Shown one piece after another: positions 14,402 through 47,167 of a stretch of DNA of 50,126 bases. The position numbers and the translations under genes are program-made. Each line of letters starts with the position of its first letter. Within the stretch, counting starts at the first letter, position 1. The notes under the pieces are model-generated. The model made no database searches. It was given only the letters and a program-made list of their open reading frames with translations, and had not been told where the DNA came from. Origin of the DNA: Escherichia phage ev017; sequence record NC_049948.1. One strand, written 5' to 3'.

Positions 14402-15145
14402 ATGACAGAGACAGAATCAGCGATTCTGGCGCATGCCCGGCGATGTGCGCCAGCGGAGTCGTGCGGCTTCGTGGTGAGAGCGCCGGAGGGGGAAAGATAT
14501 TTTCCCTGCGTGAATATCTCCGGTGAGCCGGAGGCGTATTTCCGGATGGCTCCGGAGGACTGGCTGCAGGCAGAGATGCAGGGTGAGATTGTGGCGCTGG
14601 TCCACAGTCATCCCGGTGGTCTGCCCTGGCTGAGTGAGGCCGACCGGCGGCTGCAGGTGCAGAGTGATTTGCCGTGGTGGCTGGTCTGCCGGGGGGCGAT
14701 TCATAAGTTCCGCTGTGTGCCGCATCTCACCGGGCGGCGCTTTGAGCACGGGGTGACGGACTGTTACACGCTGTTCCGGGACGCTTACCATCTGGCGGGG
14801 ATTGAGATGCCGGACTTTCATCGTGAGGATGACTGGTGGCGTAACGGCCAGAATCTCTATCTTGATAATCTGGAGGCCACAGGGCTGTATCAGGTGCCGT
14901 TGTCAGCGGCGCAGCCGGGCGATGTGCTGCTGTGCTGCTTTGGTTCATCGGTGCCGAATCATGCCGCTATTTACTGTGGTGACGGCGAGCTGCTGCACCA
15001 TATTCCTGAACAACTGAGTAAACGAGAGAGGTATACCGACAAATGGCAGCGACGCACACACTCCCTCTGGCGTCACCGGGCATGGCGCGCATCTGCCTTT
15101 ACGGGGATTTACAACGATTTGGCCGCCGCATCGACCTTCGTGTGA
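14402..15145 (+). CDS. K: Tail tip assembly protein K (MPN/JAMM plus NlpC/P60-like); alternative internal start at 14546 gives the 199-aa form
   Basis: 247-aa ORF; HSHPGG...SEAD JAMM-like motif and C-terminal Cys/His hydrolase-like region; overlaps I by ~100 nt. Confidence 0.88.
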   Translation: MTETESAILAHARRCAPAESCGFVVRAPEGERYFPCVNISGEPEAYFRMAPEDWLQAEMQGEIVALVHSHPGGLPWLSEADRRLQVQSDLPWWLVCRGAIHKFRCVPHLTGRRFEHGVTDCYTLFRDAYHLAGIEMPDFHREDDWWRNGQNLYLDNLEATGLYQVPLSAAQPGDVLLCCFGSSVPNHAAIYCGDGELLHHIPEQLSKRERYTDKWQRRTHSLWRHRAWRASAFTGIYNDLAAASTFV

Positions 15146-22048: not shown

Positions 22049-22906
22049 CTAATTGGGTGATAACAGATCCTGTGTATGGGAGTTTCCCTTTTTGCGTGCG
22101 TTGATGCTGGTAACGGCAAACGTCATGATGAACAAAACCGCGAATAAGACGACAATCGTCGGAGCTGGTGCGCTGTCGATAAAAAAGGACAACCAGACAC
22201 CAGTCATTGACACTATTACCGATATGCCAGTCGCCAGTAGGAGCGCAATATGAAAGCGTTGTGTCAGGAGTACCGCAATGGCGCCAGGCGCAATGAGCAG
22301 AGAAATGGAGAGAATGATACCTACCGCTTTCAGCGTCGCCACAATGGTCAGAGAGACCATGCACAGCAGCCCATAATGCAGCCATCTCGTATGCAAACCG
22401 CTTACCTGCGCCTGTTGATAATCAAAGCTGAACAGCAAAAAATCCCGCCATTTTACGCTAATAACAAGTGTAACCAGCCCGGCAATAATCATCGTCTGGA
22501 TTATATCGCCGATGGTTATCCCGAGCATGTCGCCGAAAAGAATATGGTCAAGATGTACGTCTGGTTTGACTGCAATATACAAGATCAGACCTGCGGCAAA
22601 CATGCCAGAAAAAACAATCCCCATCACTGTATCTTGCTTGATTCGGCTGTTGTCTTTCAGGTATCCCGTCGCCACCGCGCAGAATACTCCGGCGACGAAT
22701 GCCCCTGTAGCCAAAGGTAACCCCAGAATCCAGGCAAGCACGATTCCAGGAAAAACCGCATGACTCATCGCGTCACCCATCAGTGCCCAACCTTTCAGGA
22801 CCAGAAAGACCGACAGCAGCGCACAGGGTATGGAAACTACCAGTGAAATCAGCAGTGCGTGACTCATAAAGGTGAACTGCAGTGGCTCCAGTAATAATGC
22901 CATCAT
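22049..22906 (-). CDS. sitD: Iron/manganese ABC transporter permease SitD
   Basis: 285-aa polytopic membrane protein typical of the ABC-3 permease family; last gene of a 4-gene operon. Confidence 0.88.
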   Translation of the reverse strand: MMALLLEPLQFTFMSHALLISLVVSIPCALLSVFLVLKGWALMGDAMSHAVFPGIVLAWILGLPLATGAFVAGVFCAVATGYLKDNSRIKQDTVMGIVFSGMFAAGLILYIAVKPDVHLDHILFGDMLGITIGDIIQTMIIAGLVTLVISVKWRDFLLFSFDYQQAQVSGLHTRWLHYGLLCMVSLTIVATLKAVGIILSISLLIAPGAIAVLLTQRFHIALLLATGISVIVSMTGVWLSFFIDSAPAPTIVVLFAVLFIMTFAVTSINARKKGNSHTQDLLSPN

Positions 22907-23760
22907 GAGCGATCCTCCAGCGCCTTATGCGCACGCCGACGATTTGCCAAAAGCCCATGGGTGGGCGCAAAGACAAATGCTAAAAGAAACAGCAGTGTCT
23001 GCGCCACCACGATGATTCCACCTGTCGCGCCGTCCAGAAAGTAACTGACCCACGCGCCGAGGAAACTAGTTACACTGCCAATAGTTACAGCAATCATGAG
23101 CAGGCGGGGAAAACGATCGGTTAACAACCATGCTGTTGCACCGGGAGTCACCACCAGACAGATCACCAGAAAGGCACCAACCGTTTGCAGCGCCGCAACG
23201 GTCGAAACCGACAGCAGGGTGAAGAAGATGAGTTTTAATCTGCCCGGATGCAATCCAATAGCACGGGCGTGATTCTCGTCGAAAAAGGTCACCATAAGAT
23301 CTTTCCATTTGAAAAAAAGCACGATGATCGAGAGAATGCCAATGATAGTGAGTTGCAGGATATCCGCCGGATCGATTGCCAGAATATTGCCCAGGACGAT
23401 GGTCTGAATGTTCACAGATGTCGGGTTCAATGACACCATAAACAGCCCCAGGCCAAAAAAGGACGAGAAGATCAGACCGATGATGGCATCTTCTTTTAAG
23501 CGGGTGCGTTGGTTAAGAAACAGCATGCTGCCCGCAGCCAGTCCGCCGGAAAAGAAGGCTCCCAGAGAAAACGGAAGCCCCAGCATATATGCCCCCGCAA
23601 CACCCGGGACAATAGAGTGCGACAACGCATCGCCAATCAGCGACCAGCCTTTTAGCATCAGATAGCATGACAGGAAAGCGCAGAGACCGCCGACCATCGC
23701 CGAGACCCACATCGCATTGAGCATATATTCATAGCTGAAGGGTTCCAGTAGCACGTTCAT
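22903..23760 (-). CDS. sitC: Iron/manganese ABC transporter permease SitC
   Basis: 285-aa ABC-3 family permease, translationally coupled to sitB and sitD. Confidence 0.88.
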
Positions 23761-24584
23761 CTTTCTTCCCTCTGCACCGCTGACGGTCGATGAGCCACAA
23801 AAGGGCGTTCATCGTCAGTAATAATGCTTTCTTCCGAGCCGTTAAGTGTGACATGGCGCAGTACGCCGCTAAAAGCCAGCTCTAGGTTCTCGGCTGTAAA
23901 AGTGGTGTCTGTCGGCCCGCTTGCCAGGACGGTGCCTTTGACCATGACCGTATAATCGCAAAATGTCGTGACGGATCCGAGATTGTGTGTTGAGACAAGC
24001 ATCGTTTTGCCTTCCGCGCGTAACTCCCTCAACAGGCTGATGATTTTGGCTTCGGTTTTCACATCAACGCCAGTAAAAGGTTCATCCAGCAGGATCACAT
24101 CACCCTGCTGTGCAATCGCTCTCGCCAGAAAGACGCGTTTCTTTTGTCCACCGGAAAGCTCGCCGATTTGTCGATGGCGAAAATTCACCATATCGACACG
24201 TTCCAGCGCATCGGTGACAATTTGACGATCCCTCTTTTTGGCGATACGCAACATACCCATATGCCCATAGCGGCCCATCATCACCACATCTTCCACCAGT
24301 ACAGGAAATGACCAGTCAACATCTTCTGACTGAGGGACGTAGGCAACCAGGTTTTTCTGTAACGCCTGTCGCGTGGGAATACCCAGAACAGATATCTTTC
24401 CGCTGGTCAGACGCACAAATCCCATAATCGCTTTAAACAACGTCGATTTTCCGGAACCGTTTACCCCAACCAGAGCGGCAATAGATCCACTTGGTACTGT
24501 GAAGGATGCATCGCGCAGTGCTGTGTGCCCGTTACGCCAGGTGACAGTAACATCATTAACGACAATGCCTGCAGATTGCATCAT
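23757..24584 (-). CDS. sitB: Iron/manganese ABC transporter ATP-binding protein SitB
   Basis: Walker [13 protein letters not shown] signature LSGGQKKR, Walker B ILLDEP. Confidence 0.92.
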
Positions 24585-25498
24585 TATTTCTCCCTTTTCC
24601 CAGCTTTAATTCCCTGTACCAGCGTACTGGTAGTAACCTTAAGAAGGTCGATATACGTCGGTACCGGGCCGTTTTCTGTGCTCAGGGAATCGACATAGAG
24701 CACACCGCCGTAGTGTGCGCCGGTTTCACGCGCAACCTGACGCGCTGGTTTATCGGAAATCGTACTCTCGCTAAAGACTGCCGGGATATGATTTTTCTTA
24801 ACTATATCAACAACCTTACGTACCTGCTGCGGTGTTCCTTGTTGATCGGCATTAATCGGCCACAGATAAAGCTCTTTTAGCCCCAAATCGCGTGCGAGAT
24901 AAGAAAAAGCCCCTTCACTGGTGACCATCCATCGCTGATTCTCAGGGAGTTCCGTAATCTGCTTACGCAGGGGGGCAAGGGTTTGGGTAATCTTGGCTTT
25001 ATAAGTATCGGCATTGCGTTGGTAGGTTTGTGCATTTGCCGGATCGTATTTTATCAACGCATCACGAATATTATCGACGTAAATCAGAGCATTATCTGGC
25101 GACATCCATGCATGGGGGTTAGGTTTGCCCTCATAGGGTCCTTCGGTGATCCCTACAGGCGTCACACCCGAAGAGACAATTACTTCTGGAACCCCATTGA
25201 GATGCTGGTAAAAGCGTTGGAACCACAATTCCAGATTCATACCATTGGCGAGAATCAGTTGTGCCCCCTGCGCACGTTTAATATCGCCAGGGGTAGGCTG
25301 ATACTCATGAATTTCTGCACCAGGCTTGGTTATGGATGAGACTTCTGCAGCATCTCCCGCCACGTTTTTGGCCATATCCGCGATGATGGTAAATGTTGTA
25401 ATGACCTTGAATTTTTCAGTTGCACTTGCCTGAAATGCGATCGAGCAGGTGAGTGCGAGGCCCCCCAAGAGCATGGTTACTTTTTTTATCGAGTGCAT
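24584..25498 (-). CDS. sitA: Periplasmic metal-binding protein SitA
   Basis: 304 aa with N-terminal signal peptide; cluster-9 metal-binding lipoprotein-like; first gene of operon. Confidence 0.88.
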
Positions 25499-25530
25499 AA
25501 TTTAGTACCTATAGTGAGCAAAATTAGAAC

Positions 25531-25985: not shown

Positions 25986-26184
25986 TAATCGACGGAAGCA
26001 GTTCCGTTTGGTCTATGATGCAGTTGTCCGGCAGGCGCTCTGTGACGCAAAAGAACGATAGGAGTAGCATTGAAGTGAACGAGGTTATGCTTGTCTTATA
26101 TTATCCTCTATTTTAAAAACATCAGCTGGTTGTGTAAGAGTTTTTATTGTTTTATCTTGTTGACTTTGCTTTTATGAAAACAGA

Positions 26185-26955
26185 GTGATTGATACAATGA
26201 AAACCTTAAGTGGGAAAGAGTTTAGGAAATTATTTAATCGTTATGAGACAGGATTCTATCTAAGTGAGTTTGAATACTTAAAGGACTTTGATCCTTTGTT
26301 TCCTGAATGCGTAGGGAAAGAATTAAAGTTGGGTTATAAACGAAAAGTTGATGTATGGTGCGAAGAGGATGCTGCGCTATATGCAGAATTTATAGCTACA
26401 AAAGAAAGGCTGAAAAGAGGCCGGTTAATCCTAAAAATAAACCAAGTGTGGTCGCGTGTATATCCTGCTTATATTTATGCAATTGAAGAAAGAATAAATG
26501 TCAGGGCAAAGGGGAGAGAGTCATTTAAGTATGAAACTGTGCAAGAAAAACAATGTAAACTTTCCATAATGTTAGATGGTCTGAAAGACCTTGAATGTGA
26601 AATAGCTATGATTTCAAGTGAGTTTGAAATTGAAAAACACTCTATGCACTATTTTTATATGATTTTTGATATTGAACGCTATATAAATGACTGCAGTTAC
26701 TTTGTTTTTTCTGCTGCTAAAGTTGTTAAAGGCGTGATTCAATGCATTGGTTACATTGACAAAAATAACAAAGCAAGTTGCGATGAATTTTATTCAGGCA
26801 GCTATGAATGCTTGGATGATGATCAGGAAACACTGAACTATTTAAATGAATCATGCGCAGAGGGTATAGACGCTGATAAAGATCTCATCAGGAAGAATGA
26901 GTTATTAGCCTTATCCCTGAAGGAATTGTATCAACTTCTCGTTTCAAAAAAATAA
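26185..26955 (+). CDS. Hypothetical protein (AT-rich orphan cargo gene)
   Basis: 256-aa ORF, markedly AT-rich relative to its flanks, own upstream AT-rich region; no recognised motif. Confidence 0.6.
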   Translation: MIDTMKTLSGKEFRKLFNRYETGFYLSEFEYLKDFDPLFPECVGKELKLGYKRKVDVWCEEDAALYAEFIATKERLKRGRLILKINQVWSRVYPAYIYAIEERINVRAKGRESFKYETVQEKQCKLSIMLDGLKDLECEIAMISSEFEIEKHSMHYFYMIFDIERYINDCSYFVFSAAKVVKGVIQCIGYIDKNNKASCDEFYSGSYECLDDDQETLNYLNESCAEGIDADKDLIRKNELLALSLKELYQLLVSKK

Positions 26956-27414
26956 CAAGTAATACGGCGAGCGATATGACGTGCCATGGGATATCCGCAC
27001 CCAGCAGCATGTTGTCTCCACGATGTCCGCAGTTCGCTCATAATAGACATTCACTACAGTTATAGTAGAAGGTATGCATGCTGCTGAGTGGGGAAAGTGT
27101 GAAAGAAAAGAAGACAGCTGCTTTGTTTGTCGTCACGTTTATCTTCATTGGCTATGCAAGTCGTAATACAAGGCGGGACAAAACTGAGACACATAAGGCC
27201 TCGCAATGGCTTGCAAGGCCACACATGTATTGAGATGTTAATAAAATGTAGACTTGTAATTTTGATATAAATGGTAGAGAAAATCTTTCCCCAAAATAAA
27301 AACGAACGTCAATGAAATCAAACGGTTGAATAAAGTTGATTTTGGCTAATACAAAGACAAGAAAATAATATTTATGATTAAATATCAGCGAGTTGAATAC
27401 ATAATTTTTATATA

Positions 27415-36367: not shown

Positions 36368-36949
36368 ATGAACAACTCATGGTGGCAGGAACTAATGCAT
36401 TTTTTCCTGCAAGGAATGACACTTAAACAGTTGATTCATATGCTAATCATCCTGATCATATTGATTATTGTTATGCCGGTAAGCGTAAAAGAATGGATAA
36501 ACCTGCATAGTCCAGAAATCCTTCCTCATTACTGGATGTATTACATCCTGTTGTTTTGCGTTAGCTATGTGCTTAACGGCGTTGTTAATTCCGCTTATCA
36601 CGCTGTGACTGAAAGAATTGAGGTATTCGCTGCTCAGAAGCGCAAATCTAAAGAAGAAAAATATGTGCAAGATTTGTTTGATTCGTTAACTCTTGGAGAA
36701 AGAGCGTATTTGGCATTCGCTGTAGCCGCTAATAACCAGCTACAAACGGAAAAGGGCGCTCATGAATCAATTTCATTGCTCAAAAAAGGACTCCTCGTTC
36801 GAAGGCCTCCTGCTGTTGGATATCCTGATACCGACCGTTTCGTTATCCCTGAAAGCTATAGACATGAGTGCTACATTAGGTTTGCCGGGAAGGCAGACAG
36901 CCTTATGGATGAACTTATCGCTCAGGATAAGCATGGCAAAAACAAGTAA
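36368..36949 (+). CDS. sieB: Superinfection exclusion protein SieB
   Basis: 193-aa ORF MNNSWWQELMHFFLQGMTLKQLIHMLIILI... matching lambda SieB; opposite strand to the surrounding operon, as in lambda. Confidence 0.9.
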   Translation: MNNSWWQELMHFFLQGMTLKQLIHMLIILIILIIVMPVSVKEWINLHSPEILPHYWMYYILLFCVSYVLNGVVNSAYHAVTERIEVFAAQKRKSKEEKYVQDLFDSLTLGERAYLAFAVAANNQLQTEKGAHESISLLKKGLLVRRPPAVGYPDTDRFVIPESYRHECYIRFAGKADSLMDELIAQDKHGKNK

Positions 36950-36965
36950 TTAGCAAATGAATTTA

Positions 36966-37238
36966 TCATCTCGCCGTCAGTTGTTTTGATTTCCGGTAGC
37001 CTGCCGCGTAAAGAGCTACGTTCGGAAGACAAGTTGAACCTTCATATTTTCTGGTCAACGTTGTCAGAGTTATCACTTCTGCTCTCATTGCTGGTTTGAG
37101 CTTGCATTGCAAGACCACTCGTGAAGGGGTTGGCCTGTGTAGCTTGTCGGAGCTGATCGCCTCCTGACTTTGCAGATTTGCGCGACGAGCTCTACGGCGA
37201 GAAGCTGCGGTGCCTTTAAATTCTGTTTTTCTGGACAT
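36966..37238 (-). CDS. N: Antitermination protein N-like (early antiterminator; C-terminus resembles the P22 gp24 type)
   Basis: ORF 36966-37310; Met at 37238 preceded by GGGAGGA; N-terminal Arg-rich motif GTAASRRRARRANL; first gene of the leftward operon. Confidence 0.75.
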   Translation of the reverse strand: MSRKTEFKGTAASRRRARRANLQSQEAISSDKLHRPTPSRVVLQCKLKPAMRAEVITLTTLTRKYEGSTCLPNVALYAAGYRKSKQLTAR

Positions 37239-37385: not shown

Positions 37386-37424
37386 CAGTCTGTTCCATTT
37401 GGCTTCCAGCGTCCTGCTGACGGT

Positions 37425-37480
37425 TAAATAGTACGATATGTACTTTACAAGATCAATACAATTTGTTGTAAGTTGGCGTG
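37425..37480 (-). promoter_or_regulatory. OL: Candidate OL/PL operator-promoter region
   Basis: Palindrome AGTACGATATGTACT at about 37430-37444 plus a second TTACAA...TTGTAA inverted element; related AGTAC-n5-GTA element recurs between cI and cro. Confidence 0.45.
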
Positions 37481-37674
37481 GTTTTTTATAACGCTTTGTA
37501 TTTAATAGTGTTGTTTTTTAGCGTGGATGTATTGCCTCGGCGATGTAAGGAGAGATCAGAATTGCGTGGTTTAGTGGGTTGCATCTATTTATTTTTCAAT
37601 AAATATAATTGGTTATGTGTTTTTAGGTGGGCGAACGTGAGGCAAAGAAAACCCGGCGCTGAGGCCGGGTTGTA

Positions 37675-38427
37675 TTATGCTGCAAGTCTCTTAACCCAAG
37701 TCTCTCTTTTGGAGAATGGTAGAACTTGGCTTGATTCATGGAAGAGTAAGGAGAGTTGTTGCATTTGATCACCAATTGCTTCGCTGTCTATAACAACAAA
37801 TCTGTTGTTATACTCCTCACTTGAAGCTTTAAGATCAATTAGTTTCCCAAGCAATGAGTAAGCACTATTCCAGCTTCCTCCGTGTTTCACGCTTGATGTA
37901 AAAACGTATTTAGGTATGTCGGTTTTTATTGTTACAGGGACGGTAATTTGATGTCCACTCAAGCCATATACGTTTTCACGAAGAGAAAGTGCGTCTCTAA
38001 GCTCTGTGTGATATAGATAATCAATAACCATACTTTCAAACTTTTCAGCTTGAACTGGCTGATACCAGTCTAACGACAAAGTTGATGCGAGTATACCAGC
38101 TCTAATTATGTTCGATGTAATCGCACCGACATCCTTTTCTGTTGCCCAAGCAATGATTTCTCCTCGAGCATTGAGTTCTGCGCCTTCTTTAAGCAGTAAT
38201 TGTCGTATCTCATCAAGTCGTTTTTTGGTAAGCGAGATCCCTCTTGCCTCCATATTCATTAAGGCATCGCATCTGTCACTAACTAAATACCTACCATTGA
38301 CTTCACGGATAAAGGCACCGACATGCTCTCCATCATCACAGTAAGTGAATGGACTGATAATTCTCAAGGTCTTGCCTATTGGATGGCATTCGAAACCTAG
38401 TTGTGAGATCACTGTTGAGCACATCAT
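37675..38427 (-). CDS. Hypothetical protein, gene 2 of a two-gene cassette at the rexAB-equivalent locus (candidate phage exclusion/defence component)
   Basis: 250-aa ORF, AT-rich, overlapping the stop of the upstream 185-aa ORF; same strand as cI; no recognised catalytic motif. Confidence 0.65.
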   Translation of the reverse strand: MMCSTVISQLGFECHPIGKTLRIISPFTYCDDGEHVGAFIREVNGRYLVSDRCDALMNMEARGISLTKKRLDEIRQLLLKEGAELNARGEIIAWATEKDVGAITSNIIRAGILASTLSLDWYQPVQAEKFESMVIDYLYHTELRDALSLRENVYGLSGHQITVPVTIKTDIPKYVFTSSVKHGGSWNSAYSLLGKLIDLKASSEEYNNRFVVIDSEAIGDQMQQLSLLFHESSQVLPFSKRETWVKRLAA

Positions 38428-38981
38428 ATTCCAAACCCCATTTGCCCCGACTCATCTTCAAGCGGTAAAGGTATTCTCCCAGAGTAAGTTATGTTCAGAT
38501 GTTTACAGAAGTAATTCCAATACCCTACCAGGTCATCTGGGTTTATGTCATCTTCGATTGGAAACGCTATTCTATCACTATAGTATCCAGCTTCTTCATA
38601 GTATACATGGTAGTGAGCACCGTAAATGATATCTTGGTACTTCGGATGATCGACCTTGTAACTATTCGTGTGTTTGTCAAAGTGATAGGTATCTACCGCG
38701 AAAACCCTCTTGTTATGATAGAAAGCAATAATATTTATTTTAGGGTAAGAAATCGGGTCATCAGGTTCTGAATCCTGATCTGGTTTCCATTTCAGTTCAA
38801 ACTTTAGCCCTTGTATAGGTATACAATCCTCATCCAAGGGGATGATATGGGCTTGTAGCCACATATCAGAGCGACTTGGTTTCTGTTTCCATTTAACGCC
38901 AGAAAAGTTAACTATTTTTTTACAATAAAGTACTTTATCAACTTCTACTTGGCTTGGCTGATAATCATCTATTTTTGCCAA
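38424..38981 (-). CDS. Hypothetical protein, gene 1 of the two-gene cassette at the rexAB-equivalent locus
   Basis: 185-aa ORF starting ~40 nt downstream of the cI stop; AT-rich; Tyr/His/Asp-rich; no recognised motif. Confidence 0.65.
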   Translation of the reverse strand: MAKIDDYQPSQVEVDKVLYCKKIVNFSGVKWKQKPSRSDMWLQAHIIPLDEDCIPIQGLKFELKWKPDQDSEPDDPISYPKINIIAFYHNKRVFAVDTYHFDKHTNSYKVDHPKYQDIIYGAHYHVYYEEAGYYSDRIAFPIEDDINPDDLVGYWNYFCKHLNITYSGRIPLPLEDESGQMGFGI

Positions 38982-39020
38982 TGTTTACCGCCCTGTAAAT
39001 TGTAGATAAAAGTGGTTTCA

Positions 39021-39674
39021 TCACCCAAACGTCTCTTCAGGCCATTGGCTGGCGATAACTTTCCCCACAACGGAACAACTCTCATTGCATGGGATCATTG
39101 GGTATTGTGGGTTTAGTGGCTGTAGAAACACCTGACCGCTATCCCTGATCAGTTTCTTGAAGGTAAATTCATCACCACCAAGTCTGGCTATGCAGAAATC
39201 GCCGGGCTCAACAGCTTGCTCAGGGTCAACCAGAATTAACATCCCGTCAGGAAAGCTGGGTTTGGAACCTGTTGGTGCGGTCATTGAGTTACCTTCAACC
39301 TCAAGCCAGAATGCAGAGTCACTGGCTTTTTTGGTTGTGCTTACCAATCTCTCCGCATCGCCTTTGGTAAAGGTTCTGAGTTCTGGAGAGAACATCCCAG
39401 CCTGAACATGAGAAAAAACAGGGTACTCATATTGTTTTTTAACTGGGGCCGATGAGTATTCGCCAACAGGTGAAAATGTCCCGTCGTGGTTGAATGATAT
39501 GTTATCAATACCAAGGTATTTAAACACCACACCAATATCACTAAGAGATGGATGACGAGATCCGCGCAACCAGTGTCCAATCCCACCCTGCGTCATACCT
39601 AGCTCTTCGGCTAACTTCTCTTGAGTTATGCCGAGCTCTTTCATTCTGGATCTAGCCAGTTCATACCATTTCAT
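39021..39674 (-). CDS. cI: CI repressor (lambda-type C-terminal LexA-like cleavage/dimerisation domain, heteroimmune N-terminal HTH)
   Basis: ORF 39021-39722; C-terminal ~140 aa ([18 protein letters not shown]...[18 protein letters not shown]) match lambda CI; N-terminal DBD differs; start codon among Mets at 39674-39722 uncertain. Confidence 0.9.
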
Positions 39675-39722
39675 TTTCATGTCCTTATTATTACGCTCTG
39701 TACTGGAACCATCCATGCACAA

Positions 39723-39791
39723 TGTGTATTTTTACTTGTATTCGCAAAGTACATATTGTATTTTTTTATTCGTGTTTACTATGGAGGGCAT
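39723..39791. promoter_or_regulatory. OR: OR/PR/PRM divergent operator-promoter region
   Basis: Intergenic region between divergent cI and cro containing AGTAC/GTACT-type partial palindromes. Confidence 0.5.
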
Positions 39792-40007
39792 ATGAGCAAC
39801 CTACGAAAATATCGAGAGTCACTGAATATCTCTCAAACAACACTTGCTAAGGCAGTTGGATGCACACAGGGAGCTATCGGACATTGGGAATCTGGTCGTC
39901 GCTTCCCAGACCTTAAAACATGCCGTGCTCTTGTTGCGTGCCTAAACAAGTTAGGCGCAAAAGTCAGTCTTGATGACGTGTTCCCGCCGGAACACAAAGC
40001 CGCTTAA
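39792..40007 (+). CDS. cro: Cro-like repressor
   Basis: 71-aa HTH protein from Met at 39792 (GGAGGG RBS); shares the TQGxIGHW recognition-helix motif with the cI N-terminus. Confidence 0.8.
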   Translation: MSNLRKYRESLNISQTTLAKAVGCTQGAIGHWESGRRFPDLKTCRALVACLNKLGAKVSLDDVFPPEHKAA

Positions 40008-40148
40008 TAAGCGGATCCGCTCTTTGTAACAACGGACATTCGTCCTACGTCGCTGAAAAGCGAGTTCCAAGATATCTGACCAACTAAGGCCATATGCGTT
40101 TCCACGCATACCTTTCAACTAACTATTCACTATTGGAAATCTTAAGAA

Positions 40149-40445
40149 ATGGAAAGAACAAGTTACAGCAAACTATCACAGCGTGACGTTGATCGCGCAG
40201 AAACAGATTTACTTATCAATCTGTCAGCTATTACCCAGCGCGGTCTGGCAAAGATGATTGGCTGTCATGAATCGAAGATAAGCAGAACGGACTGGAGATT
40301 TATTGCTTCGGTCTTGTGTGCTTTCGGAATGGCATCAGACATCAGTCCGATTAGCAGGGCTTTTAAGTATGCGCTTGATGGACTCACCAATAAAAAACGC
40401 CCGGCGGCAACCGAGCGTTCTGAACAAATCCAGATGGAATTCTGA
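40149..40445 (+). CDS. cII: Transcriptional activator CII
   Basis: 98-aa ORF; C-terminal LTNKKRPAATERSEQIQMEF matches lambda CII, N-terminus divergent. Confidence 0.85.
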   Translation: MERTSYSKLSQRDVDRAETDLLINLSAITQRGLAKMIGCHESKISRTDWRFIASVLCAFGMASDISPISRAFKYALDGLTNKKRPAATERSEQIQMEF

Positions 40446-40477
40446 GGTCATTACTGGATCAATCCACAGGAGTCATT

Positions 40478-45280: not shown

Positions 45281-46363
45281 TTAGAACTGATAAACCAGAC
45301 CTACAGCGACGATGTCGTCGGTATCAATACCAGCTGTTTTGGTAAACTTACTATCGTCAATTAAGTTGATTTTGTAATCAACAAAAGTGGACATGTTTTT
45401 ATTAAAGTAGTAAGTAGCACCGACATCGACATACTTGACTAAGTCTCGGTCACCATGAACACCAAGGTCTTTACCTTTTGACTGAAGGTAAGCAACAGAT
45501 GGACGCAGACCGAAGTCAAACTGATATTGTGCTACTGCTTCAAAGTTTTGTGCTTTGTTTGCAATATGGTTATTACCAAAAACGGTCATATTCTGAGTTT
45601 CAGAATATGTGGTAGCCAGATAGATATTGTTCGCATCATATTTCAGGCCTGCAGCCCATACTTCCGCATTTTTGCCGGAGGCATTGAATTTGCTCTTACC
45701 ATAGGCGACCTGACCGTCAGTGCGATCTGATTTAGCATAGGTTGCACCCACGCCGAATCCTTCATACTCATAAGTAGTGGAGAAACCGAAACCATCACCA
45801 TTGGCTTCAGTTACGTCAGTGCGGTCATTTTTACCCTGATACTGAGCAGCAAAGTTCAGGCCATCGACCAGACCAAAGAAGTCGTTGTTACGATAAGTTG
45901 CAACACCAGTAGTGCGACCAGTCATGAACACATCTGTTTGGGTCCAGGTATCACCACCGAATTCTGGCAGAACGTCAGTCCACGCACCGATGTCGTATGC
46001 TACACCGTAGTTACGGCCGTAATCGATTGAGCCGTAATCACCAAATTTCAGGCCTGCAAATGCAAGACGGGTTTTGTCTTTGGAAGAACCTTGAGATTCA
46101 GCACGGTTGCCTTTGAATTCATATTCCCACTGACCGAAACCAGTCAGTTGATCGTTGATTTGGGTTTCACCTTTGAAGCCAAGACGGGCATAAGTAGTAT
46201 CACCATCATCTGCATCATTAGAGGAGAAGTAGTGCTTGGCATTAACTTTCCCGTATAGATCCAGCTTGTTACTGTCTTTATTATAAATTTCAGCTGCCTG
46301 AGCAGACATCGCCATCAGTACTGATGCAGCTACAGCAGAAATTGCCACTGTTAATTTTTTCAT
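45281..46363 (-). CDS. Outer-membrane porin (OmpC/NmpC/Lc family), phage-borne
   Basis: ORF 45281-46423; from [23 protein letters not shown] signal peptide; general porin repeats; C-terminal VGLVYQF with terminal Phe. Confidence 0.9.
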
Positions 46364-46951
46364 TGTACGCCCTTTTTTTGAACTTTTATTAAAAAATGAT
46401 GTCACTGCGCGATAAATATTCATCTAATCAATGTGATTATTTCAAGATGTAAGTTTTAGTTTCTCATTTAATTTGTGAAGTAGATCTCTATTTTTATCTG
46501 AACCTTTTCTATCTAATCCTATTCATGGCTCTTGTCTGAACAAAAATAAATCTATTAGCTAATTTATATTAATGGCACTTATTTATAAGTGCTCTATAAT
46601 TCTTTAGCTTAATTTAAACAAACTAAAAATAACATCGGAAATTATTAACTGGTTATTTGTTGAAGTTTTCTTATGCATTTGTGGTGGTGTTTTGAACACT
46701 CGGTGGCATTCTCACAAATATCATTTAGTAGTTTACGTACGTAAAAAATTGGTTATGCTGTTAAGAGTGGTTACTTCGTCACACAGCTTAAACCCGCCGT
46801 CGAGCGGGTTTTTCCATTTTTTGAGTCTCGATATTAGCTGATAACCCAATACCTGAGTTATTCACTGACTCCGAATCTGTTACGTTTCTGCCTTTATTGC
46901 GATACGTAGTATCCCCTTAATTTACACCCGCTTTGTCTGCGAGGTGGGGTT

Positions 46952-47167
46952 ATGAAATCCATGGATAAGTTAACAACGGGTGTCGCCTATGGTACCTCAG
47001 CAGGTAGTGCCGGGTACTGGTTTTTACAGTTGCTCGATAAAGTCACGCCCTCACAGTGGGCGGCAATAGGTGTGCTGGGTAGCCTGGTATTTGGCCTGCT
47101 GACGTACCTGACAAACCTTTATTTCAAGATTAAAGAAGATAAGCGCAAGGCTGCGAGAGGTGAATAA
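46952..47167 (+). CDS. S: Pinholin (S21-type holin)
   Basis: 71-aa two-TMD protein [26 protein letters not shown]... matching phage 21 S. Confidence 0.88.

What the first reader, a model, noticed from the sequence alone, without database searches (positions are those of the whole stretch)
37675..38981. Uncharacterised AT-rich two-gene cassette at the rexAB locus: candidate novel phage-exclusion/defence system
Two overlapping minus-strand ORFs (185 aa then 250 aa, 4-nt overlap) lie between the cI stop and the N gene, exactly where lambda carries rexAB. They are on the cI strand with only ~40 nt separating them from cI, so are probably transcribed from PRM in the lysogen. Both are strongly AT-rich compared with the flanking cI and N, indicating recent acquisition. 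Neither shows motifs I recognise (no Walker, nuclease, kinase or TIR/SIR2-like signature, no clear TMD). The first protein is rich in Tyr/His/Asp with a KWKxKP element. Lysogen-expressed gene pairs at this position are typically abortive-infection or exclusion systems.
Basis: inference. Interest (0 to 1): 0.85.

Follow-up and report, generated by a model that had tools for sequence, protein, structure and literature searches.

The report
Untested two-gene prophage cassette beside cI
Two overlapping genes sit directly behind the repressor gene of this lambda-like phage, where lambda carries rexAB. They belong to a widespread but never tested gene pair that temperate phages of many bacteria keep next to their repressor, most likely to protect the lysogen from other phages.

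Summary
Two minus-strand ORFs, A (38424-38981, 185 aa) and B (37675-38427, 250 aa), overlap by 4 nt. A starts 39 nt after the cI stop, and B is followed at once by a terminator.

The swapped segment runs exactly from the cI stop to that terminator. Phages with the same cI carry other cargo there. The same cassette also sits beside a different cI.

The pair is not RexAB: there is no sequence match and no membrane segment. B is a distant full-length relative of PDC-M24B. PDC-M24 is a computationally predicted, untested "phage defence candidate" in PADLOC. A relates to PDC-M24A/DUF6978 only weakly but shares a D...HxN...HxH motif.

B models as a T3SS-chaperone-like N domain plus a restriction-endonuclease-like C domain that lacks the canonical catalytic residues. 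A models confidently but resembles no solved structure.

The A-then-B pair follows the prophage repressor on the same strand in Enterobacterales, Aeromonas, Pseudomonas and Azotobacter. It lies between repressor and integrase in several Firmicute phages.

The identical cassette is in 241 of 5426 complete E. coli genomes, including CFT073 and Nissle 1917.

Best reading: a lysogen-expressed anti-phage system. Function and mechanism are unproven.

The parts
39021..39722 (-). cI-type repressor (HTH + Peptidase_S24, LexA family). It is the upstream gene of the presumed operon. The RefSeq start for the identical gene corresponds to window 39716.
   Evidence: ORF list. Annotated 'LexA family transcriptional regulator' in the 100% identical phage ev207.
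38982..39020 (-). 39-nt cI-A spacer. It holds a purine-rich stretch (CAGGGCGG) about 7 nt before the TTG start of A and has no terminator.
   Evidence: Sequence read. Terminator scan.
38424..38981 (-). Gene A, 185 aa, soluble and acidic (pI 5.3), beta-rich. Invariant in 44 distinct relatives: W31, R92, D97, H104, N106, H123, H125, F158, P173. Conserved C-terminal tail G-Q-(M/I/L)-x-L. Matches phrog_2017 (unknown function). Weak match to DUF6978 / PDC-M24A.
37675..38427 (-). Gene B, 250 aa, soluble (pI 5.9). The N-terminal part carries DUF1828 (Pfam match 26-110; the model's N-terminal domain runs to about residue 122) and has a T3SS-chaperone-like fold. The C-terminal domain (about 127-250) has a restriction-endonuclease-like fold without the canonical PD-(D/E)xK residues. 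Matches phrog_1960. Distant full-length match to PDC-M24B.
38424..38427 (-). ATGA junction: the stop of A overlaps the start of B, implying translational coupling. The junction is conserved in all 15 proteobacterial loci printed.
37650..37671 (-). Intrinsic-terminator-like hairpin (AACCCGGC-CTCAGC-GCCGGGTT) followed by TTCTTTGCCT, 3 nt after the B stop. It lies in the flank shared with phages that carry other cargo, in the position of the terminator that ends lambda's cI-rexA-rexB operon (from memory).
37672..39018 (.). The exchangeable cassette. Homology with phages 2G7b and Stx2a_WGPS8, which have the same cI allele, stops at 37671/37672 and resumes at 39019/39023.
   Evidence: Local blastn. 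Annotation of the alternative cargo.
36966..37238 (-). N-like antiterminator gene. It marks the far side of the slot and is context only.
   Evidence: Annotation of the identical phage ev207.

Best explanation
A and B form a lysogen-expressed, two-protein anti-phage (superinfection-exclusion or abortive-infection) module. It is carried as exchangeable cargo in the cI-to-terminator slot of lambdoid prophages. It is a divergent proteobacterial branch of the predicted PADLOC candidate PDC-M24.

Proposed working:
- Shown by anatomy only: the pair is read through from the cI promoter in the lysogen. A is poorly initiated (TTG start). B is translationally coupled to A through the ATGA overlap. Both would therefore be made at low, fixed ratio.
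- Inferred: the two soluble proteins form a complex.
- Inferred: B's N-terminal T3SS-chaperone-like domain binds a protein or peptide cue. The cue could be a product of the incoming phage, or the conserved C-terminal tail of A.
- Inferred: this switches on an activity that stops the infection. The activity would reside in A's conserved D97/H104/N106/H123/H125 site (two His on one face of a beta-strand, metal-site-like), in B's endonuclease-like C domain, or in both. The likely target is nucleic acid.
For: Position and operon anatomy:
- cI stop, 39 nt, A, ATGA overlap, B, terminator, with no terminator in between.
- The cI-N region is an established hotspot of mosaic cargo. It holds rexAB in lambda and bstA in BTP1, the latter highly expressed in the lysogen (Owen et al. 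2021, PMC8585504).

Cargo behaviour:
- The same cI allele carries other cargo between identical breakpoints.
- The same cassette sits next to a different cI in Stx1_121427.
- A variant cassette with about 68% identity in A follows four different repressors.

Link to a defence candidate:
- B matches PDC-M24B end to end (E 4.7e-10).
- 65 of 82 B relatives match PDC-M24B, the best at 1.6e-80.
- PDC-M24 was derived from cassettes embedded in BREX, DISARM or type I RM loci.
- A bona fide PDC-M24 pair in a Latilactobacillus phage (A 9.7e-21, B 5.7e-58) has an A protein with the same D..HxN..HxH motif.
- Profile-profile comparison of the two A groups gives E 6e-4 over 128 colinear columns.

Deep conservation of the pair and its place:
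- Every one of 32 loci has an A-like ORF upstream of B, and all match the A profile.
- 9 of 10 upstream genes tested in Pseudomonas, Azotobacter and viral contigs are HTH+S24 repressors on the same strand.
- The same holds in Enterobacteriaceae, Aeromonas and Thorsellia.
- Four Firmicute phages (Lj965, phage 37, phiSP119-3, MissF) place the pair between an annotated repressor or HTH regulator and integrase, on the same strand. Latilactobacillus TMW 1.1365 P3 and satellite Javan357 place it just upstream of integrase, with no repressor annotated on that strand.
- In S. aureus 80alpha that stretch is one cI-led transcript in the lysogen and holds the proven defence gene tha (Rostol et al. 2024, PMC11087260).

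Structure and prevalence:
- Confident models: A pLDDT 86, B pLDDT 84.
- B has a T3SS-chaperone-like or DUF2170-like domain plus an endonuclease-like domain.
- The cassette is kept at 99% identity or more in 241 of 5426 complete E. coli genomes.
Against: - No experiment of any kind bears on function. PDC-M24 itself is only a prediction and was not among the systems tested. No paper in the searched library mentions PDC-M24 or gives a function for DUF1828 or DUF6978.
- The A-to-PDC-M24A link is weak. The PADLOC match is E 4.8e-4 over residues 104-163 only. The Pfam DUF6978 score is 22 bits, below the 29.6-bit cut-off. Only 5 of 22 close relatives and 1 of 22 broader-family members match PDC-M24A. 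hhalign probability is 28%.
- B's endonuclease-like domain lacks a conserved D...(D/E)xK on strands 2 and 3. H159 is replaced in Firmicute relatives.
- The tight linkage to repressor genes across phyla would also fit a role in the phage's own lysogeny control.
- Transcription from the cI promoter is inferred, not measured.
Confidence: 0.55

Rival explanations
1. The pair serves the prophage's own lysis-lysogeny decision rather than defence. It would modulate repressor level, repressor cleavage or induction. A second role of this kind has been reported for lambda RexA (from memory: Thomason et al. 2021).
For: The pair is linked to a repressor gene on the same strand in every proteobacterial genus examined and in four Firmicute phages. 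This holds although the repressors belong to different families and B identity falls to about 20-25%.
Against: - Phages with the same cI allele and the same flanks lack the pair and carry unrelated cargo instead, so it is dispensable for that switch.
- It combines with many unrelated repressors.
- The PDC-M24 family was defined from copies embedded in BREX, DISARM or type I RM loci, outside a lysogeny module.
- In Nissle 1917 it is kept intact, at 100% identity, in a prophage with a truncated integrase gene and an IS3-family insertion. Bury et al. report that prophage as non-inducible.
Confidence: 0.15
2. The pair is a toxin-antitoxin-like addiction module that stabilises the prophage. Any anti-phage effect would be secondary.
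For: Two translationally coupled genes with a conserved 4-nt overlap. One partner has an enzyme-like conserved site. The pair persists in degraded prophages.
Against: - Neither protein matches any toxin or antitoxin family in Pfam, NCBIfam or PADLOC.
- Both proteins are large for a type II pair.
- Neither has a DNA-binding antitoxin-type domain.
- The cassette is lost and replaced freely between near-identical phages.
Confidence: 0.1
3. The pair is lysogenic-conversion cargo that alters host physiology (stress, metabolism or virulence) and has no role against phages.
For: The same phage carries other host-benefit cargo, namely sitABCD and an OmpC-like porin. The cassette is common in extraintestinal and commensal strains such as CFT073 and Nissle 1917.
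Against: - Host-adaptation cargo is usually host-specific. This pair spans Enterobacterales, Aeromonas, Pseudomonas and Azotobacter, and its PDC-M24 relatives are in Lactobacillus, Staphylococcus and Streptococcus phages, always in the repressor-linked module.
- Relatives are embedded in restriction and BREX loci.
Confidence: 0.12

Closest known systems
PDC-M24 (PADLOC-DB v2 'phage defence candidate', multi-gene no. 24; Payne et al., bioRxiv 10.1101/2024.01.29.577857)
   Same: - Two adjacent co-oriented genes, a small A followed by a roughly 250-aa B.
- B is homologous over its full length.
- A shares the D..HxN..HxH core and a colinear profile alignment.
- Bona fide PDC-M24 pairs also sit in the lysogeny module of temperate phages.
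   Different: - A here is 185 aa against about 142-154 aa. It is barely detected by the PDC-M24A and DUF6978 models.
- B scores 37 bits against 194 bits for a true member.
- The proteobacterial branch always uses an ATGA overlap and follows S24-type repressors.
- PDC-M24 itself is untested, so it supplies a label, not a mechanism.
Lambda RexA/RexB
   Same: Same slot (between cI and N), same strand as cI, two genes ended by a terminator, presumably expressed in the lysogen (hotspot statement in PMC8585504).
   Different: - No sequence similarity in Pfam, PHROGs, NCBIfam or PADLOC.
- RexB is a polytopic membrane protein (established knowledge). A and B are both soluble.
- The genes overlap here.
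BstA (prophage BTP1) and Tha (S. aureus 80alpha): proven defence genes in the repressor operon
   Same: Same genomic logic: cargo directly downstream of, and co-transcribed with, the prophage repressor (PMC8585504; PMC11087260).
   Different: Those are unrelated single proteins (a KilA-N/DNA-binding type and a HEPN type). No similarity to A or B was detected.
PD-(D/E)xK restriction-endonuclease fold (NgoMIV, BstEII, PspGI; Can2 nuclease domain)
   Different: - No sequence relation to any solved structure.
- The catalytic D and (D/E)xK positions are not conserved. The family instead conserves G-x-S/T-G before strand 2, D198-x-K/R on a helix, and D/E214.
T3SS-chaperone-like fold (CesT, SicP, SpcU) and DUF2170
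   Different: No sequence relation. There is no secretion-system context. Here the domain is fused to an endonuclease-like domain.

Membership tests
PDC-M24 (PADLOC candidate system) | B component matches a PDC-M24B profile over its length | tested here: met
   PDLC04540 E 4.7e-10, residues 2-249 against profile 4-254/256. The match is distant: a true member scores 5.7e-58. 65 of 82 relatives of B match PDC-M24B.
PDC-M24 (PADLOC candidate system) | A component matches a PDC-M24A profile | tested here: inconclusive
   E 4.8e-4, residues 104-163 only. 5 of 22 close relatives and 1 of 22 broad relatives match. hhalign against Firmicute PDC-M24A proteins gives E 6e-4, probability 28%, 128 colinear columns. 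The D..HxN..HxH motif is shared.
PDC-M24 (PADLOC candidate system) | Adjacent, co-oriented A-then-B gene order | tested here: met
PDC-M24 (PADLOC candidate system) | Would be called by PADLOC's own system rules and thresholds | not tested
   PADLOC itself was not run; only its HMMs were scanned. The weak A hit makes a call doubtful.
PDC-M24 (PADLOC candidate system) | Anti-phage activity | not testable with these tools
   PDC systems were predicted, not assayed.
RexAB | Sequence homology to RexA and RexB | tested here: not met
   Scans with E up to 1 against Pfam, PADLOC, PHROGs and NCBIfam return only DUF6978, DUF1828, PDC-M24, unknown-function PHROGs and one chance-level NCBIfam hit (glutathione peroxidase, E 0.15, 11.6 bits against a 270-bit cut-off).
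RexAB | One partner is a polytopic inner-membrane protein (RexB) | tested here: not met
   Highest 19-residue hydropathy mean is 0.45 (A) and 1.19 (B). Both proteins are acidic and soluble.
RexAB | Located between cI and N, on the cI strand, ended by a terminator | tested here: met
Pfam DUF1828 (PF08861) | Score above the curated gathering threshold | tested here: met
   B residues 26-110, 33.5 bits against a cut-off of 22.
Pfam DUF6978 (PF22398) | Score above the curated gathering threshold | tested here: not met
   A residues 104-164, 22 bits against a cut-off of 29.6. Only 3 of 22 family members match at E 0.01 or better.
PD-(D/E)xK nucleases | Alpha/beta core fold | tested here: met
PD-(D/E)xK nucleases | Conserved acidic residue at the start of strand 2 and (D/E)xK on strand 3 | tested here: not met
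   Strand 2 is preceded by S157-G158-H159, and H159 is not kept in Firmicute relatives. Strand 3 has no conserved acidic residue or Lys in the broad family. Residues were placed from predicted secondary structure, not from superposition.
Type II toxin-antitoxin systems | Match to a known toxin or antitoxin family | tested here: not met
   No such match in Pfam, NCBIfam or PADLOC.

The most novel reading that the evidence does not exclude
The A-B pair is a mechanistically new immune (or lysogeny-linked) module that temperate phages of both Proteobacteria and Firmicutes keep in the repressor operon. A would be a previously undescribed metal-dependent enzyme fold, with an invariant D/HxN/HxH site and no structural relative. 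It would be controlled by a partner that fuses a chaperone-like sensor to a catalytically rewired endonuclease fold.
Probability: 0.3. Interest if true: 0.75.

Novelty: new variant of a known kind. Interest (0 to 1): 0.55.

Why it matters
If the pair is a defence system, it adds a widespread, easily tested member to the small set of systems known to ride in the repressor operon of temperate phages (RexAB, BstA, Tha).

It is present unchanged in well-used strains: uropathogen CFT073, probiotic Nissle 1917 and the E. coli type strain. It could therefore account for part of their unexplained resistance to lambdoid phages. Bury et al. 2018 explicitly left "other genes of prophage 3" open.

Protein A has a strongly conserved, enzyme-like site in a fold with no solved relative. 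Working it out could reveal a new effector chemistry.

The near-universal linkage to repressor genes across phyla is a rule that gene-neighbourhood defence screens centred on defence islands would miss.

Tried and rejected
Tried without result:
- PDB by sequence: nothing for A; only chance hits for B.
- BFVD Foldseek of A: one uncharacterised viral protein.
- AlphaFold-database fold libraries: not available.
- NCBIfam: no real match.
- Literature searches for PDC-M24, DUF1828/DUF6978, the RefSeq protein accessions and the PhiR phage names: no functional study.
- Single distant B proteins P0096 and P0087: no viral contigs.
- Plasmids: no B relative.
- A scan for the Latilactobacillus B: found only the same phage.
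- hhalign of the A family against one Firmicute A sequence: not significant. The six-sequence profile did better.

Considered and rejected:
- RexAB homology: no match, no membrane protein.
- A canonical nuclease active site in B.
- HepS (PMC13043305) and TerI (bioRxiv 2025.02.27.640495): checked and unrelated.
- The 'phage repressor' of Bury et al.: it turned out not to be cI or the cassette.

Full report
**What is in the sequence.**
The window is a lambdoid phage. Positions 37400-39800 are 100% identical to Escherichia phage ev207 (Jouyvirus) and to PhiR57_1 and PhiR63_2.

Read along the minus strand, the region runs as follows:
- cI (39722/39716..39021), annotated as a LexA-family regulator in the identical phage ev207;
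- a 39-nt spacer with no terminator;
- ORF A (38981..38424, 185 aa, TTG start);
- ORF B (38427..37675, 250 aa), starting inside A's stop codon (ATGA);
- 3 nt later, a terminator-like hairpin with a T-rich tail (37671..37650);
- about 400 nt of non-coding sequence;
- the N-like antiterminator gene (37238..36966).

Both proteins are soluble and acidic, with no membrane-span-like stretch.

The cassette is AT-rich: 0.395 GC against 0.463 for cI, 0.495 for N and 0.497 for the window. The whole early-left region is also AT-rich (0.40-0.45), so composition alone says little.

**It is exchangeable cargo.**
Phages 2G7b and Stx2a_WGPS8 share the flanks at about 94-99% identity. Their homology stops at window 37671/37672 and resumes at 39019/39023, that is, exactly at the terminator and at the cI stop codon. 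Between those points they carry unrelated genes of 283 aa and 173 aa.

Conversely, Stx1a phage Stx1_121427 has the same cassette (98.5% identity) next to a different cI. A variant cassette with about 68% identity in A follows four different repressors in Enterobacteriaceae prophages.

The cI-N interval is a recognised hotspot of mosaic cargo. It holds rexAB in lambda and bstA in BTP1 (Owen et al. 2021, PMC8585504).

**What the proteins are.**
Neither protein matches RexA, RexB or any characterised family. The matches found are:
- Pfam gives DUF1828 for B residues 26-110 (33.5 bits, above the cut-off). For A it gives only a sub-threshold DUF6978 match (22 bits against 29.6).
- PHROGs gives two families of unknown function.
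- NCBIfam gives nothing real.
- PADLOC gives PDC-M24B for B over its full length (E 4.7e-10). For A it gives a weak, partial PDC-M24A match (E 4.8e-4, residues 104-163).

PDC means 'phage defence candidate'. These are cassettes found embedded in BREX, DISARM or type I RM loci and added to PADLOC without experimental test (Payne et al., bioRxiv 10.1101/2024.01.29.577857). Their Table S8 lists cassette FAM_00129>>FAM_00065 as PDC-M24.

**Structure.**

Across 44 distinct A-family sequences the invariant residues are W31, R92, D97, H104, N106, H123, H125, F158 and P173. H123 and H125 alternate on one predicted strand, and D97 and H104 lie on the neighbouring strands. That arrangement suggests a metal or catalytic site. 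This is inference.

B models as two domains (pLDDT 84):

I assign the first set to the N-terminal DUF1828 half and the second to the C-terminal half by secondary-structure order. The tool gives no residue alignment.

The canonical D...(D/E)xK residues are not conserved. The family instead keeps G155-x-S157-G158, W186, D198 and an acidic residue at position 214. Nuclease activity of B is therefore possible but not supported by the usual signature.

**The pair is old and always sits with the repressor.**
B has 229 relatives among representatives clustered at 50% identity. Almost all of the 150 listed are stand-alone proteins of about 250 aa or shorter fragments; one is a 791-aa protein with four matched stretches.

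In all 32 loci examined, an ORF of about 170-185 aa ends with a 4-nt overlap on B, and every one matches the A profile. These loci come from Enterobacteriaceae, Aeromonas, Thorsellia, Pseudomonas, Azotobacter and uncultured viral contigs. The ATGA junction is conserved in all 15 proteobacterial loci printed. 8 of 18 A genes start with TTG or GTG.

The gene upstream on the same strand is an HTH+Peptidase_S24 repressor in 9 of 10 distant loci tested, and in all the closer ones. A D3-like Pseudomonas phage has the pair downstream of its CI-like repressor with one gene in between, and there the A gene is unannotated.

Firmicute phages carry bona fide PDC-M24 pairs or close relatives. The Latilactobacillus pair scores 9.7e-21 for A and 5.7e-58 for B. 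The other five B proteins were found by tblastn with the Latilactobacillus B.
- In Lj965, S. aureus phage 37, phiSP119-3 and Streptococcus MissF the pair lies between an annotated repressor or HTH regulator and integrase, on the same strand.
- In Latilactobacillus TMW 1.1365 P3 and satellite Javan357 it lies just upstream of integrase, with no repressor annotated on that strand.

Their A proteins (142-154 aa) carry the same D..HxN..HxH core. They align colinearly with the proteobacterial A profile (hhalign E 6e-4, probability 28%, 128 columns).

In S. aureus 80alpha the genes from cI onward are one transcript in the lysogen and include the proven defence gene tha (Rostol et al. 2024, PMC11087260).

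**Prevalence.**
The identical cassette (99% identity or more) is chromosomal in 241 of 5426 complete E. coli genomes. These include CFT073, Nissle 1917 and the type strain ATCC 11775.

In Nissle 1917 it lies in a prophage next to icd with a truncated integrase gene and an IS3-family insertion. This is the 'prophage 3' that Bury et al. 2018 (PMC5987069) linked to resistance against lambda and Stx phages. They left 'other genes of prophage 3' untested.

**Interpretation.**
The best-supported reading is a lysogen-expressed two-protein anti-phage module. It is a divergent proteobacterial branch of the untested PDC-M24 candidate. It occupies the rexAB slot but is mechanistically unlike RexAB.
- Shown: the anatomy, the cargo behaviour, the homology of B, the conserved pairing and placement, the fold assignments and the conserved site in A.
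- Inferred: transcription from the cI promoter, complex formation, which protein senses and which acts, the target, and the defence function itself.

The main rival is a role in the phage's own lysogeny control. The universal repressor linkage favours it. Against it, phages with the same cI do without the pair, the pair combines with unrelated repressors, and relatives occur inside restriction and BREX loci.

Addiction-module and host-physiology readings are less likely.

**Novelty.**
This is a new variant of a known kind. The slot logic is established, and the family is already listed as a candidate. What has not been described, as far as the searchable literature shows, is:
- the A component as it appears here;
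- the cross-phylum repressor linkage;
- the fold of A;
- any function.

The search covers open-access papers and bioRxiv only. A characterisation under another name cannot be excluded.

Noticed in passing
window 40103-40471 (cII-like gene 40149..40445, +): The primers used by Bury et al. 2018 (PMC5987069) to clone and quantify the Nissle 1917 'phage repressor' pr (EcN_1294) map to the cII-like gene of this immunity region. They do not map to cI (39021..39722). The published 'repressor' that reduced lambda and Stx plating about 200-fold therefore appears to be a CII homologue.
   Followed up: partly
L038:3486-4004 (Pseudomonas phage VB_PaD_phPA-G, PP083311.1, about 14515-15033): An A-family gene that overlaps the annotated B homologue by 4 nt is not annotated in the GenBank record. 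It matches the A profile at E 5e-10.
   Followed up: yes
window about 22050-25500 (-) and 45281-46423 (-): By 99% identity to ev207, the phage carries sitABCD-like iron/manganese transporter genes in its late-left region and an OmpC-like porin gene downstream of Q. These are further lysogenic-conversion cargo.
   Followed up: partly
window 26001-27000 and 46001-47000: These are the two most AT-rich kilobases of the window (GC 0.357 and 0.374), lower than the A-B cassette. The first lies just beyond sitA. The second covers part of the porin gene and the sequence beside it. They were not analysed.
   Followed up: no
window 36368-36949 (+): A 193-aa ORF on the opposite strand between N and the ral/kil region is annotated 'super-infection exclusion protein B' in relatives. 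The phage therefore carries a second presumed exclusion gene about 700 nt from the A-B cassette.
   Followed up: no
L041:2035-2493 (Lactobacillus prophage Lj965, Ljo_0292): In this Firmicute A homologue the otherwise conserved Asp of the D..HxN..HxH motif is a Cys (VRLCINGTRHHN).
   Followed up: no
window 37675-38427 (protein B) and relatives: Cys3 and Cys14 of B (MxC...C) are invariant or nearly so in the proteobacterial B subfamilies aligned (A2, A5, A6). No role is proposed.
   Followed up: no
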